64,000 nt of DNA from Stegostoma tigrinum (taxonomy: Eukaryota). Of the stretch, positions 32,928-61,414 are shown piece by piece (the first letter of the stretch is position 1; each line of letters begins with the position of its first letter). The stretch covers positions 21,412,629 through 21,476,628 of the forward strand of contig NC_081391.1 in the NCBI RefSeq assembly GCF_030684315.1. The letters are read 5' to 3'. A program made the translations under genes and the position numbers. The notes beneath the pieces were generated by a model. It was not told the DNA's origin. It did no database searches and was given only the letters and a program-made list of their open reading frames with translations.

Positions 32928-33024
32928 AACTTATGAAGAAGTGTCCAGACCTGAAACATCAGCTTTCCTGTTCCTCTGATGCTGCTTGACCTGCTGTGTT
33001 CATCCAGCTCAACACCTTGTTCTA
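32928..33024 (+). mobile_element. ~97-bp Penelope 3'-end-related insertion upstream of the copy 6 promoter (also ~56910-57007)
   Basis: 'tgaagaagtgtccagacctgaaacatcagctt...gatgctgcttgacctgctgtgttcatccagc' parallels 58443-58520. Flanked by CAAAT repeats and absent from the other promoters. Confidence 0.75.
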
Positions 33025-50326: not shown

Positions 50327-51283
50327 CAGGCCCAGCAGCATCTCAGGGGCACAAAAGCTGACGTTTCGGGCCTAGACCCTTCATCAGAGAGTGGGATGGG
50401 GAGAGGGAACGGGAATAAACGGGGAGAGGGAACGGGAATAAACAGGGAGAGAGGGGGAGGTGGACCGAAGATGGAGAGTCAAGAAGATAGGTGGGGAGGG
50501 GATAGGTCAGTCCAGGGAAGACAGACAGATCAAGGAGGTGGGATGAGGTTAGTAGGTAGATAGGGGTGCGGCTTGGGGTGGGAGGAAGGGATGGGTGAGT
50601 GGAAGAACCGGTTAGGGAGGCAGAGACAGGTTCGACTGGTTTTTGGATGCAGTGGGTGGGGGGGAAGAGCTGGGCTGGTTGTGTGGTGCAGTGGGGGGAG
50701 GGGACGAACTGGGCTGGTTTAGGGATGCAGTAGGGGAAGGGGAGATTTTGAAACTGGTGAAGTCCACATTGATACCATATGGCTGCAGGGTTCCCAGAGG
50801 GAATATGAGTTGCTGTTCCTGCAACCTTCGGGTGGCATCATTGTGGCACTGCAGGAGGCCCGTGCTGGACATGTCATCTAGAGAATGGGAGGGGGAGTGG
50901 AAACGGTTTGCGACTGGGAGGTGCAGTTGTTTGTTGCGAACTGAGCGGAGGTGTTCTGCAAAGCGGTCTCCAAGCCTCCGCTTGGTTTCCCCAATGTAGA
51001 GGAAGGCACACCGGGTACAGTGGGTGCAGTATACCACATTGGCAGATGTGCAGGTGAACCTCTGCTTCATGTGGAATGTCATCTTGGGGCCTGGGATAGG
51101 GGTGAGGGAGGAGGTGTGGGGACAGGTGTAGCATTTCCTGCGGTTGCAGGGGAAGGTGCCAGGTGTGGTGGGGTTGGAGGGCAGTGTGGAGCGAACAAGG
51201 GAGTCACGGAGAGAGTGGTCTCTCCGGAAAGCAGACAGGGGTGGGGATGGAAAAATGTCTTGGGTGGTGGGGTCGGATTGTAA

Positions 51284-51288
<5 letters not shown>
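50327..51288 (-). mobile_element. 5'-truncated Penelope-like element (Cys-rich linker plus GIY-YIG endonuclease; Neptune-like)
   Basis: Minus ORF contains CNRRKCYTC, NVVYCTHCTRCAFLYIGETKRRLGDRFAEH and GTLQPYGIN. It is the reverse complement of ~57545-58502. Confidence 0.92.
50360..50387 (-). ncRNA. Minimal hammerhead ribozyme core in the Penelope 3' region
   Basis: Minus strand reads CTGATGA-AGGGTCTAGGCCC-GAAACGTC: conserved core, stem II, palindromic ACGT and a GUC site. Stem I is weak. Confidence 0.6.
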
Positions 51289-56600: not shown

Positions 56601-57393
56601 GTTTGTATTCCTCTCAGTCTTAAATGTCCAACCCAGTCCTCTTACATCAGGATACTCTGATCCTGGACTTCCCCCCCCCCATTGGGAACATCCTTCCTGT
56701 CCTTGCCCTGTCTGATCCTGTCACAGTTTTCTATGACCCAGAGTCAATTTCCCACCTTTCTGTCTCATATCCCAGCACAACAGGCTGAGAAACTGACACC
56801 TCTTCTTCATTGACTTCCTCATGCAGTTTGTCACAACCACCTTAATTTAGAAACAAAATGTTAAAGCTTTTTTCAAACCAAATGCAGTTCTTTTTAAAAA
56901 AGAGCCAAATAAGTTATGAAGAAGCATCCAGACCTGAAACATCAGCTTTTCTGTTCCTCTGATGCTGCCTGACCTGCTGTGTTCATCCAGCTCAACACCT
57001 TGTTATACAAATGACCCATGACCCATGACCCATGACCTGATTGAGTGGGACAGCAGGTTTGAGATGCTGAATGGCCTCCTGCTGTTCCAATCACAGAATA
57101 ACCATCCAGACCTGATTATGATCTCCACCTGTGATCAGCTCTGCTTAACACACCCACCCCCTCTCTCTCATTGGTGCCTGTATGCATGGGTGGTTCCTGA
57201 TTGGCTAGCAGCAACTGTCAGTCATCATCAGTTCTGCCTCTCCATGGGTGAGTGCAGGATGGCCCCAGGAGTATAAATACAGAGCTTGTGGAAGAGCAAC
57301 TCACTTCTTGAGTGGTTTTGGTTTTAGTGAGTGGGAATAGTGAAGATGGTCTCCCAAGTGTGTCAGAACTACCACAAGAACTGTGAAGAGCGA

Positions 57394-57450
57394 TAGGGTT
57401 AGGGTTAGGGTTAGGGTTAGGGTTAGGGTTAGGGTTAGGGTTAGGGTTAG
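57394..57450 (+). repeat. Interstitial telomeric repeat TAGGG(TTAGGG)8TTAG
   Basis: Perfect 57-bp array read directly. Confidence 0.98.
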
Positions 57451-58532
57451 ACACATCCCTCACACCCCGCCCCCAAGAGGATCCCCCTCGTTCTCACACA
57501 CCACCCCACCAACCTCTGGATACAACGCATTATCCTCCGACACTTCTGCCATTTACAATCCGACCCCACCACCCAAGACATTTTTCCATCCCCTCCCCTG
57601 TCTGCTTTCCGGAGAGACCACTCTCTCCGTGACTCCCTTGTTCGCTCCACACTGCCCTCCAACCCCACCACACCTGGTACCTTCCCCTGCAACTGCAGGA
57701 AATGCTACACTTGTCCCCACACCTCCTCCCTCACCCCCATCCCAGGCCCCAAGATGACATTCTACATTAAGCAGAGGTTCACCTGCACATCTGCCAATGT
57801 GGTATACTGCATCCACTGTCCCCGGTGCGGCTTCCTCTACATTGGGGAAACCAAGCGGAGGCTTGGGGACCGCTTTGCAAAACACCTCCGCTCAGTTCGC
57901 AACAAACAACTGCACCTCCCAGTCGCAAACCATTTCCACTCCCCCTCCCATTCTCTTGATGACATGTCCATCATGGGCCTCCTGTACTGCCACAATGATG
58001 CCACCCGAAGGTTGCAGGAACAGCAACTCATATTCCGCCTGGGAACCCTGCAGCCATATGGTATCAATGTGGACTTCACCAGTTTCAAAATCTCCCCTTC
58101 CCCCACTGCATCCCTAAACCAGCCCAGTTCATCCCCTCCCCCCACTGCACCACACAACCAGCCCAGCTCTTCCCCCCCCCACCCACTGCATCCCAAAACC
58201 AGTCCAACCTGTCTCTGCCTCCCTAACCGGTTCTTCCTCTCACCCATCCCTTCCTCCCACCCCAAGCCGCACCCCCCACTACCTACTAACCTCATCCCAC
58301 CTCCTTGACCTGTCCGTCTTCCCTGGACTGACCTATCCCCTCCCTACCTCCCCACCTACACCCTCTCCACCTATCTTCTTTACTCTCCATCTTCGGTCCG
58401 CCTCCCCCTCTCTCCCTATTTATTCCAGTTCCCTCCCCCCATCTGATGAAGGGTCTAGGCCCGAAACGTCAGCTTTTGTGCTCCTGAGATGCTGCTTGGC
58501 CTGCTGTGTTCATCCAGCCTCACATTTTATTA
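57451..58532 (+). mobile_element. 5'-truncated Penelope-like element (GIY-YIG endonuclease ORF 57754-58308; Neptune-like)
   Basis: CNCRKCYTC linker and VVYCIHCPRCGFLYIGETKRRLGDRF motif, C-rich 3' UTR. 16-bp TSD ACAAG[A/G]ACTGTGAAGA at 57374-57389 and 58533-58548. Confidence 0.93.
58443..58470 (+). ncRNA. Minimal hammerhead ribozyme core in the Penelope 3' region
   Basis: CTGATGA-AGGGTCTAGGCCC-GAAACGTC. Minimal hammerheads are an established feature of Penelope-like elements. Confidence 0.6.
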
Positions 58533-61057
58533 ACAAGGACTGTGAAGATGCTGTTAACAATCAGATCAACCTGGAGCTCTATTCCTCTTATGTTTACCTC
58601 TCCATGGTGAGCCTTCTGACATTGAAGACCTGACCTCAAATTGAAGCCTGTGATATATTTGCATTGACTCTCTTAGGTTTATTTTCTTGCCTAGTTTCAT
58701 GATTTAGTTGTAGCATGTGTTTTGGTCTGTGGCCCTTCCCTGACTGAATCCCAGTGAAATGGTTCACACTGACTCTGTTGGAAACTTGAAGTTTGTCTTG
58801 TATTGCAACTGACTCCTGGGTGACAATGGCCACTTTGTTATCTCTGGACAATGTACTCCTTAGTGACTTTTCTCCTTCCTCTGAAGGGATGAGCTGATGT
58901 TGCTGATAAACCTATATTTTCCTTAAATTTGGTTACAATTTTCTTTTAAAGAGAAGATTTCCCTGGTGAATATTTCTATGCAAAATGTACTTGCACTCTT
59001 AAAACTTTGCCCCATTCACCAGGCTGCTCTGGTCTGAAATAGTTCTCTTCTAAAAGAAAAGCAACTGCTGGAAATTAGAAACAGCAACAAAAATAGCTGG
59101 AATAGCTTTACAGATCTGGCAGGATTTAGAGAAATCAGTTCATGTTTTGGGTCCAGTGACTCTTCCCCAAAAGTCCTCTGTCTATTCAGTAGGAAGATAG
59201 ACAAGTGTGGCATGTTTTCATACTCCAAATCTGAATTACAGAAAAAGAAACCAGTTAGAACTCAGTGCTGAGTCGATGGTAGGACAGAGTGGGGTTATTC
59301 AGGTGGGTGATGTTTGTAATGCTGGCGTTCACCATGATTCATGGCTCTGTCCATCCACGTGCTCTTTCATTCAGTGCTGCGTCCTTGATCGGCTGGTTGT
59401 GTGTCCTCTCTTTCTTCTATAATCCATGGGAGAAGACCTTCTGCCTGTCTATCATGTTCCAGTAATTAAATGTCCAGTTCTGGTTGCCATACTAACAAAA
59501 GGATGTGAATGCTTTGGAAGGGGGTGCAGAGGAGGTTCACCAGGATGTTGCCTGGTATGGAGGGTGTGAGCTACGAAGAAAGGTTGAGTAGATGAGCATT
59601 ATTTTCATTAGAAGGTGGCAGATTTGGGGGTGGGGTCCTGATTGAGCTCCTCAAATTCATGAGGGGTGTAGACAAGGTGGATAGCAAGAAGCTTTTTCCT
59701 TGAGTGGGGAACTCAATTACTAGGGGTCATGAGCTCAAAGTAAGAGCAGGGAAGATTGGGTGAGATTCCTTTCAGTGTGGAAACAGGCCCTTTAGCTCAG
59801 TGCACACTGGCCCTTGAAGCATCCCACCCAGACCCATTTCCCCTATAACCCCCATACCACTGAATGCTACAGGCAATTTATCATGTGGATATATTTGGAA
59901 AGCTCTTTACACAGGTTGGAGGGTGCCTGGCACACACTGCCTGTGGAGGTGGTAGACGCAGTCACACTAGTGTCTTAAGATCTATCTGGACAGGTACATG
60001 GATGGGCAGGGAGCAAAGGGATACAGCCCCTTTGAAAATAGATGACCGATTTGAGACCAGATGTCGCTCGGTGCAGTGTTGGAGGGTCAAAGCCTGCTCC
60101 TGTGCTCCAGCTCTTTTGTCATTAAATGTGGAATCAAGATGGTGACTGGGTTAGTTTCTGATTGAGGAGTGCCATTGAATTTCAGATACATTTCCCTTTC
60201 CTGCCTGTTTCTTCCCCCACAGTTCTCTTACTTTGACCGGGATGATGTTGCCCTGCGTCACTTTGCTGAGTTCTTCAAGGAGCAGTCCCATGAGGAGCGA
60301 GAACATGCTGAGAAGCTGATCATATTCCAGAATAAACGTGGAGGTCGTGTCCTTCTGCAGGACATCAAGGTTGGATTCAATTTTTTCAGCTCAATACACT
60401 GGACTGATATCTCAATATGATCAGGTTCAGGATTAGACAAATACTGTATGAATGGGAGGTTGCTCAGCACAATATGATTTCCTTCACTAAAAGGAAACAC
60501 TTTTGCACTTGTGATTGAACAACAGTTGGCAATTGTGATCATCCTTTATTCTGGATGGTGAGCACATATCGGTGTCTACCGTTGCTTTGGACAAGATGAG
60601 GTGTCAAAAGGGAAAACAGAAATCTTTCAGGTGTGGAAAGCATCAGTATGAAGCCTTTATACTTCAAGGATGTTTCTGATGCCTTGAGATCATTCTGATC
60701 ACAGCATAGCAGGATTTATTTAGAAATGTCCCCCTTCAAGAACAGTACCAAATACAGCATGTGTTTTGCCAAGGTCAAGTTGGCCTGTAGTACCTCCCCT
60801 ACAATGATGAGGGATGACTAACTGATCAGATGTAGACTAATGATACAACTGCCTGCTGAGCTGTGCTTTCTGTTCCTGCTTCCCTCCCTCCAGAAGCCAG
60901 AGCAGGATGAGTGGGGCAATGGTCTGGAGGTAATGCAGAGAGCTCTGCAGATGGAGAAGGATGTGAACCAGAGTCTGCTGGATCTGCACAAACTGGCCTC
61001 TGGCCACACGGACCCTCATGTGAGTGTGGTGTATTTAAATCTGGGTTTTTTGAATAA

Positions 61058-61414
<357 letters not shown>

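What the first reader, a model, noticed from the sequence alone, without database searches (positions are those of the whole stretch)
57374..58548. Telomeric repeats capping the 5' junction of a Penelope insertion inside a coding exon
Seen: TSD (16 bp, 1 mismatch, both halves carrying the copy-specific GAAGA variant), then GCGA, TAGGG(TTAGGG)8TTAG, the truncated Penelope, and the second TSD. The array lies inside the TSD, has its G-rich strand running 5'->3' away from the upstream target end, and stops at GGTTAG. Known: vertebrate telomerase extends 3' ends and finishes repeats in the GGTTAG register. Penelope RTs are close relatives of TERT, but the telomere-associated ones described are endonuclease-less, whereas this one has GIY-YIG. 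Inference: telomerase extended the free target end during integration, or the element's RT switched template to telomeric RNA/DNA. Either would be a telomerase-retroelement interplay.
Basis: partly seen in the sequence, partly recalled or inferred. Interest (0 to 1): 0.85.

Follow-up and report, generated by a model that had tools for sequence, protein, structure and literature searches.

The report
Telomere repeats at Penelope insertion junction
A jumping gene landed in a spare copy of a shark ferritin gene with a short run of telomere repeats patched into one joint, most likely because telomerase briefly treated the cut as a chromosome end; it is one event, of a kind already known at ordinary DNA breaks.

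Summary
A 16-bp duplication (1 mismatch) brackets a 4-nt spacer, a perfect 57-nt TTAGGG tract and a 5'-truncated Penelope-like element with a GIY-YIG endonuclease. The insertion breaks exon 1 of one of ten tandem ferritin genes in a carpet-shark-like genome.

The tract is not part of the family: 78 of 153 homologues read through that spot without it. It also did not grow from a precursor, since 8 sister exon-1 copies have none.

Best reading (0.5): a short interstitial telomeric sequence that host telomerase added to the upstream 3' overhang during integration. Polarity, purity, length and the GGTTAG end all fit. An RT jump onto telomeric nucleic acid, or carry-over from a source copy lying in telomeric repeats, predicts the same polarity and stays open.

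The polarity is opposite to Athena-type capping. The two other Penelope-derived insertions in the window were joined by microhomology, so 1 of 3 carries a tract. Nothing shows a Penelope-specific link to telomerase. The family-wide junction count could not be run. My literature searches found no published case. Verdict: new variant of a known kind.

The parts
57346..57389 (+). 5' part of exon 1 (from the ATG) of ferritin unit 10, H/M-type
   Evidence: tblastn map of the 10-unit array; Pfam Ferritin on exons 2-4; best PDB sequence hits for exon 2 are ferritin middle subunit
57374..57389 (+). Upstream TSD copy; the predicted 16-nt 3' overhang of the upstream target end
   Evidence: the overhang is inferred from TPRT geometry
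57390..57393 (+). 4-nt spacer GCGA, apparently untemplated
   Evidence: none of six 7-9-mers spanning it recurs within about 2 kb on either strand; does not match the template flank of catshark TERC
57394..57450 (+). Perfect telomeric tract TAGGG(TTAGGG)8TTAG, G-rich strand continuous with the target top strand and the element sense strand, ending GGTTAG
57451..58532 (+). 5'-truncated Penelope-like element (Neptune/Nematis-type linker): end of RT thumb region, linker, endonuclease, 3' UTR, hammerhead-like core and tail; a net 14-nt deletion near 57474 is inferred from P0001
   Evidence: 92% aa identity to P0001 (Stegostoma tigrinum) and 88% to P0002 (Rhincodon typus); frames compared
57688..57714 (+). 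CX4CxxC linker zinc-finger-like motif (CNCRKCYTC)
   Evidence: motif definition from passages of PMC8557442
57799..57936 (+). GIY-YIG core with CxxC between the two motifs and the two downstream His (CCHH)
   Evidence: Pfam GIY-YIG E=0.0016, 19.1 bits, below the 22.6 cut-off
58443..58470 (+). Minimal hammerhead-like core (CTGATGA...GAAACGTC), followed by a 62-nt tail to 58532
   Evidence: motif match; no Rfam hit; folding z-score 0.11; min-HHR description in PMC4209133 passages
58533..58548 (+). Downstream TSD copy (priming side of the insertion)
58549..58606 (+). Rest of ferritin exon 1 coding sequence
60223..61414 (+). Exons 2-4 of the interrupted ferritin gene (60223-60369, 60894-61019, 61271-61414), no stop codons
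33330..33431 (+). Empty-site comparator: intact exon 1 of unit 6, the closest paralogue of unit 10
   Evidence: 111 mismatches in 2915 aligned columns over the right flank; the other 7 paralogue hits are 67-72% identical over up to 900 bp

Best explanation
A short interstitial telomeric sequence was written by host telomerase into the break that the retroelement itself had made. Steps: (1) The element's GIY-YIG endonuclease cut ferritin exon 1 on both strands 16 nt apart (inferred from the TSD). (2) The downstream 3'-OH primed cDNA from the element's tail, and synthesis stopped after about 1.1 kb (standard TPRT; truncation shown). (3) The upstream end was left with a 16-nt 3' overhang and no microhomology join formed. 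A few untemplated bases were added, and telomerase then added about 9.5 repeats, stopping at its template boundary, GGTTAG (inferred). (4) Both overhangs were filled in and joined with no detectable microhomology, which restored the chromosome and killed one redundant ferritin copy by a stop after codon 16 (outcome shown; enzymes inferred, CST-Pol alpha fill-in being one candidate). The RT-TERT kinship is not needed for any step.
For: One-step insertion inside the TSD, with no precursor in 8 other exon-1 copies. Not family-internal: 78 of 153 homologues align across the junction +/-20 aa with at most 3 inserted residues, and 0 of 153 contain a telomere-encoded pentapeptide. The G-rich strand runs out from the free upstream 3' end, as telomerase requires. 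In the catshark TERC row of PMC8537989 Table S1, the telomere-complementary stretch ends at a C whose 5' neighbour is not telomeric, so a full round ends in GGTTAG; the chance of this register is 1 in 6. Short ITS average about 46 nt in primates and 81 nt in rodents, start as exact arrays, and carry added sequence in 16-17% of loci (PMC2246262). TERC-ITS exist in a shark. Purity is compatible with the age: about 2.1% divergence per copy gives P=0.29 of no change in 57 nt. The residue before TSLTP is T, N, I or L and never D in 21 close homologues, so tract/element microhomology is about 0. A CST-Pol alpha route for truncated R2 insertions is described in a review passage.
Against: About 75-78% of ITS show in-register microhomology at the primer end. 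Here the spacer intervenes, and the in-phase match of the 5 bases before the tract (3 of 5) is not significant (P=0.10). No TERC-derived flank, the only direct telomerase fingerprint, was seen: catshark TERC would give CCAAA before the tract or TAAA after it, not GCGA or ACAC. Untemplated bases next to the TSD are also what an RT leaves at the cDNA end. n = 1. ITS insertion was not seen in more than 35,000 I-SceI junctions in somatic cells, so the event is rare.
Confidence: 0.5

Rival explanations
1. The element's RT ran off a broken RNA and jumped end-to-end onto the 3' end of a telomeric G-rich single strand (chromosome overhang, fragment or TERRA). It copied 57 nt, added 4 untemplated bases and was joined to the target. 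Capture of a telomeric fragment by end-joining is a variant of this.
For: Same polarity as observed; about 0 microhomology at the tract/element join; the spacer sits exactly at the cDNA 3' end, where R2-type RTs add untemplated bases and jump (review passage); L1 makes TSD-flanked multi-source inserts by template switching (PMC11702581 passages). That G-overhangs often end in GGTTAG is recalled, not checked.
Against: It needs a telomeric strand at the site. End-to-end jumping is described for R2 and L1; the two parts of the in vitro PLE paper that I read do not report it. TERRA ends are recalled to be mostly UUAGG or UUAGGG, not UUAG (unchecked). Plain fragment capture gives this orientation only half the time and this register 1 time in 6.
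Confidence: 0.2
2. 5' carry-over (transduction): a truncated source copy already lay in or beside a telomeric array. A read-through transcript was mobilised in trans through its tail, and the RT stopped 57 nt into the repeats. The GGTTAG junction would then be the old junction of the source copy.
For: PLE terminal repeats suffice to move unrelated sequence in trans (PMC3846280 passages). The CX2-5CxxC linker, present here, has been hypothesised to bias Neptune elements towards simple repeats. The spacer position fits an RT end. A consensus check does not exclude this.
Against: None of the 3 PLE-derived insertions in the window targets a simple repeat; 0 of 153 homologous proteins carry telomeric peptides, a weak test.
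Confidence: 0.13
3. Two events: an ordinary insertion, then a later double-strand break near its 5' end, repaired with deletion of element sequence and insertion of an ITS.
For: ITS often come with deletions (50% of rodent loci), and 6 of 27 TERC-ITS lie inside repeats. The tract is perfect while the TSD has 1 mismatch. A 14-nt deletion lies about 25 nt inside the junction.
Against: The deletion would have to stop within 4 nt of a TSD whose 16-bp length matches the roughly 14-bp TSD of the tail-only insertion. Tract purity needs no younger age (P=0.29).
Confidence: 0.1
4. Assembly artefact, or slippage expansion of a seed sequence.
For: Raw reads were not available.
Against: No seed in 8 other exon-1 copies or in the family; an artefact would not be expected to sit neatly between a private-allele TSD and the element.
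Confidence: 0.04

Closest known systems
Short interstitial telomeric sequences (s-ITS) inserted at double-strand breaks (PMC2246262, PMC7215372, PMC8537989)
   Same: Exact TTAGGG array of typical length, one-step appearance against an empty site, a few added bases, a target duplication.
   Different: The break partner is a newly made retroelement cDNA inside the same TSD, so the polarity of the break is known. No clear in-register microhomology and no TERC fragment. In the parts I read, ITS lie within or near repeats, or a SINE later inserts into an ITS; co-insertion is not described.
Endonuclease-positive Penelope-like elements, Neptune/Nematis type (PMC8557442, PMC11167929, PMC3846280)
   Same: C-terminal GIY-YIG with CCHH, CX2-5CxxC linker, hammerhead-like core plus tail at the 3' end, TSD, 5' truncation.
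   Different: The 5' junction holds a telomeric tract instead of microhomology or an inverted terminal repeat. The priming-side nick is not at the ATT/AT-rich site preferred by the Anolis element in vitro.
Endonuclease-less telomeric PLEs, Athena and Coprina (as described in PMC3846280 and PMC8557442)
   Same: Telomeric repeats adjoin the truncated 5' end of a PLE.
   Different: Those lack an endonuclease, prime on chromosome ends and get repeats added to the cDNA end, which puts CCCTAA on the sense strand (my inference from the described mechanism). Here the endonuclease is present, the site is intragenic with a TSD, and the sense strand reads TTAGGG.
LINE 5'-junction extras and template-switch chimeras (PMC2912911, PMC11702581, PMC5110952)
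   Same: Extra or foreign sequence between the upstream TSD and a truncated element.
   Different: The extra sequence here is telomeric. Term searches for 'telomer' found no such L1 junction in these papers; PMC5110952 notes 3 telomeric inserts at I-SceI breaks and none among its TSIPs.

Membership tests
Short ITS (break-repair type) | Short, near-exact TTAGGG array at an internal site | tested here: met
   57 nt, 100% pure, inside a gene array
Short ITS (break-repair type) | One-step appearance against an empty site, with no precursor repeat | tested here: met
   8 of 8 other exon-1 copies have no tract or seed; these are paralogues, not orthologues
Short ITS (break-repair type) | End-joining type changes at the flanks (addition, deletion, duplication) | tested here: met
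   4-nt addition and 16-bp duplication
Short ITS (break-repair type) | In-register microhomology at the 3' break end (about 75% of loci) | tested here: inconclusive
   the last TSD base is in phase but the spacer has 2 mismatches; 3 of 5 in phase, P=0.10
TERC-ITS subtype | Flank copied from telomerase RNA outside the template | tested here: inconclusive
   no match to the template flanks in the first 140 nt of catshark TERC; the host's own TERC was not available
EN+ PLE, Neptune/Nematis type | C-terminal GIY-YIG with CCHH motif | tested here: met
   full-length homologues such as P0006 carry RT plus GIY-YIG
EN+ PLE, Neptune/Nematis type | CX2-5CxxC linker between RT and EN | tested here: met
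   57688-57714
EN+ PLE, Neptune/Nematis type | Minimal hammerhead in the terminal repeat, followed by a tail | tested here: inconclusive
   core motif present; no Rfam hit; fold no better than shuffles
EN+ PLE, Neptune/Nematis type | RT phylogeny placing it in Neptune or Nematis | not tested
   the RT core is missing from this copy, and no named reference sequences were fetched
EN- telomeric PLE (Athena/Coprina) | No endonuclease | tested here: not met
   GIY-YIG present
EN- telomeric PLE (Athena/Coprina) | Attachment at a chromosome end rather than an internal, TSD-flanked site | tested here: not met
   16-bp TSD inside an exon, with at least 5 kb of host DNA on each side
EN- telomeric PLE (Athena/Coprina) | Telomeric repeats added to the cDNA end (CCCTAA on the sense strand), and reverse-complement repeat stretches next to the hammerhead | tested here: not met
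   the sense strand reads TTAGGG; only 2 isolated CCCTAA hexamers in the element, at 58112 and 58221

The most novel reading that the evidence does not exclude
Telomerase engagement is a recurrent, Penelope-enriched way of finishing integration. Shark Neptune-type insertions would leave a long-lived upstream 3' overhang, or their TERT-like RT would use telomerase RNA or telomeric strands, so that a measurable share of 5' junctions carry sense-strand TTAGGG ending in GGTTAG, well above the rate at CR1/L2 junctions. That would be a functional link between an endonuclease-positive Penelope element and telomere machinery inside chromosomes.
Probability: 0.12. Interest if true: 0.85.

Novelty: new variant of a known kind. 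Interest (0 to 1): 0.48.

Why it matters
Whether short interstitial telomeric tracts are written by telomerase or captured as fragments has been argued mainly from microhomology statistics and rare TERC fragments (PMC2246262, PMC8537989). A tract trapped between a TSD and a retroelement records which end was free and in which direction. Retroelement junctions therefore offer a polarity-and-register test that plain breaks cannot give. It would also add telomerase to the host routes that close the 5' side of a retrotransposon insertion. As a single junction in a redundant ferritin copy it has no evident functional consequence beyond the loss of that copy.

Tried and rejected
1. Tract internal to the family: rejected.
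2. Spacer copied from the telomerase RNA flank, or the ACA after the tract as template read-through: no match to catshark TERC. The bases after the tract are explained by the element itself. The host TERC is untested.
3. Spacer templated locally (snap-back): none of six spanning k-mers recurs within about 2 kb.
4. Spacer as a degenerate first repeat: P=0.10, not claimed.
5. Rfam scan of 57300-58620: 4 matches, E 3.6-8.8, all far below their gathering scores; no telomerase RNA or hammerhead family.
6. Folding of the tail: z 0.11.
7. Telomeric peptides in homologous proteins: 0 of 153. This is a weak test: only 37 of 153 have 15 or more residues before the homologous part, and one frame per strand is closed. 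153 of the 160 hits were listed and examined.
8. Relaxed selection on unit 10: 1 synonymous and 4 non-synonymous codon differences from unit 6, on both lineages; uninformative.
9. A text source for the GGTTAG pause was sought in PMC5042394 and not found. PMC4003774 had no telomeric term in its main text, and the telomere mentions in PMC11371274 were unrelated.
10. Athena-type capping: rejected on polarity, endonuclease and site.
Full report
Observation. The structure is exactly as described: upstream duplication 57374-57389, spacer GCGA 57390-57393, perfect TAGGG(TTAGGG)8TTAG 57394-57450, element 57451-58532, downstream duplication 58533-58548. Both halves carry a GAA allele absent from all 8 other exon-1 copies, so the duplication is real and arose in this gene copy; the one mismatch is private to the upstream half. 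No other telomeric array exists in the window: 9 of 12 loose dimer matches are in the tract, 3 elsewhere, with 3.99 expected.

Setting. The window is a tandem array of ten ferritin genes of H/M type. The insertion is in exon 1 of unit 10 and stops the frame after 16 codons; exons 2-4 are still open. Unit 6 is the nearest sister (111 mismatches in 2915 columns) and serves as the empty site. The element's closest named relatives are from Stegostoma tigrinum (92%) and Rhincodon typus (88%), so the host is probably a carpet shark (inference).

The element. It keeps the end of the RT thumb region, a CX4CxxC linker, a GIY-YIG core with CCHH, a C-rich 3' UTR, a hammerhead-like core at 58443-58470 and a 62-nt tail. 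The Pfam GIY-YIG score is below the curated cut-off; Rfam and folding add nothing for the ribozyme. The linker marks the Neptune/Nematis type; I did not test the clade with an RT tree. Against P0001 there is a net 14-nt deletion about 25 nt inside the 5' end (inferred from protein).

The tract is not a family feature. Of 153 listed homologues (160 hits), 78 align across the junction position with at most 3 inserted residues, and none holds a telomere-encoded pentapeptide. In 21 close homologues the residue before TSLTP is T (14), N (5), I or L, never D, so the first element bases belong to an Asn codon and there is about no microhomology with the tract. This test uses proteins, so it excludes a consensus tract but does not count junctions.

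Controls in the window. A second long copy (50327-51288, minus strand, 40 mismatches in 931 aligned bases) has its 5' end joined to exon 1 of unit 9 through a 5-nt microhomology. A tail-only insertion shared by units 6 and 10 has a roughly 14-bp duplication, a 3-4 nt microhomology at its 5' end, and ends at the same tail position. So 1 of 3 independent Penelope-derived insertions carries a tract, and the 16-bp duplication and 3' end are normal for the family.

Mechanism. A staggered cut leaves the upstream end with the duplication as a free 3' overhang, a telomerase substrate, and the G-rich strand runs out from that end. In the catshark TERC row of PMC8537989 Table S1 the telomere-complementary stretch ends so that a full round finishes in GGTTAG, as seen (1 in 6 by chance). 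Length, purity and a few added bases match short ITS described in mammals, and TERC-ITS occur in a shark. The lack of substitutions is compatible with the element's age (P=0.29). Against: no clear in-register microhomology (P=0.10), which about three quarters of ITS show, and no TERC-derived flank. I put telomerase at 0.5.

Rivals. An RT jump onto telomeric single strand, or fragment capture (0.2), predicts the same polarity and places untemplated bases at the same spot. Carry-over from a source copy lying in telomeric repeats (0.13) does too, given trans-mobilisation by terminal repeats. A later independent ITS (0.1) and an artefact (0.04) are less likely. That telomere overhangs favour GGTTAG ends, that human telomerase pauses there, and that TERRA ends otherwise are recalled and come from no call.

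Comparison. It works like a break-repair ITS and meets three of the four features tested, with one inconclusive. It is not Athena/Coprina-like: the endonuclease is present, the site is internal and TSD-flanked, and the polarity is opposite to repeats added to the cDNA end (the polarity argument is my inference). The kinship of Penelope RT and TERT is not needed to explain it.

Literature seen. PMC2246262: parts 2-4 of 7 and term passages. PMC8537989: parts 1-2 of 7, section 3.2, term passages and the Scyliorhinus rows of the supplement (first 140 nt of the TERC entry). PMC11167929: parts 1-2 of 4. Term passages only: PMC7215372, PMC8557442, PMC5110952, PMC11371274, PMC2912911, PMC11702581, PMC4209133, PMC3846280, PMC13586686, PMC5042394 (GGTTAG not found), PMC4003774 (no hits). 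I found no report of a telomeric tract co-inserted at a retroelement 5' junction in searches (search 25 returned nothing; one search was for TERC). The library lacks most subscription papers, and the per-locus ITS supplements of PMC2246262 and PMC7215372, which I did not open, could hold such cases.

Verdict. A real, clean, single event; a new variant of a known kind. Given the many retroelement copies in a shark genome, occasional junctions like this are to be expected from host repair (inference). Its value is as a polarity-marked record that makes the telomerase-versus-capture question countable. Interest 0.48; 0.85 if family-wide enrichment were shown (probability 0.12).

Noticed in passing
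window 50327-51288 (-): A second, independent Penelope copy also hits ferritin exon 1 (unit 9, at the start codon, antisense), about 30 nt from the homologous site used in unit 10. Two hits in the same short stretch of a roughly 6.4-kb unit may mark a hotspot, or tolerated loss of surplus copies; this is a post-hoc observation.
   Followed up: partly
window 50327-50330: The second copy lacks its last 29 nt or so and its TSD, and joins host DNA through a 4-nt microhomology. The unit 8-9 spacing is 3.9 kb against about 6.7 kb, so about 3 kb including the unit-9 promoter was probably deleted.
   Followed up: partly
window 601-61414: Ten-unit tandem ferritin array undergoing birth and death: stop codons in unit 4 (exons 2 and 4) and unit 7 (exon 2), no exon-1 hit for unit 2, lost ATG in unit 9, insertion in unit 10.
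   Followed up: partly
window 56917-57004 and 32934-33021: Tail-only Penelope-derived insertion of about 90 nt, shared by units 6 and 10 and absent from 5 other units aligned; starts inside the hammerhead core. Its downstream duplication seeded a 7-bp tandem repeat at 57011-57037.
   Followed up: yes
window 57474: Net 14-nt deletion relative to P0001 about 25 nt inside the element's 5' end; it may date from integration, come later, or be inherited from a source copy.
   Followed up: partly
window 58093-58206 and 50636-50743: 39-nt tandem repeat (about 2.9 copies) in the element's 3' UTR, present in both long copies.
   Followed up: no
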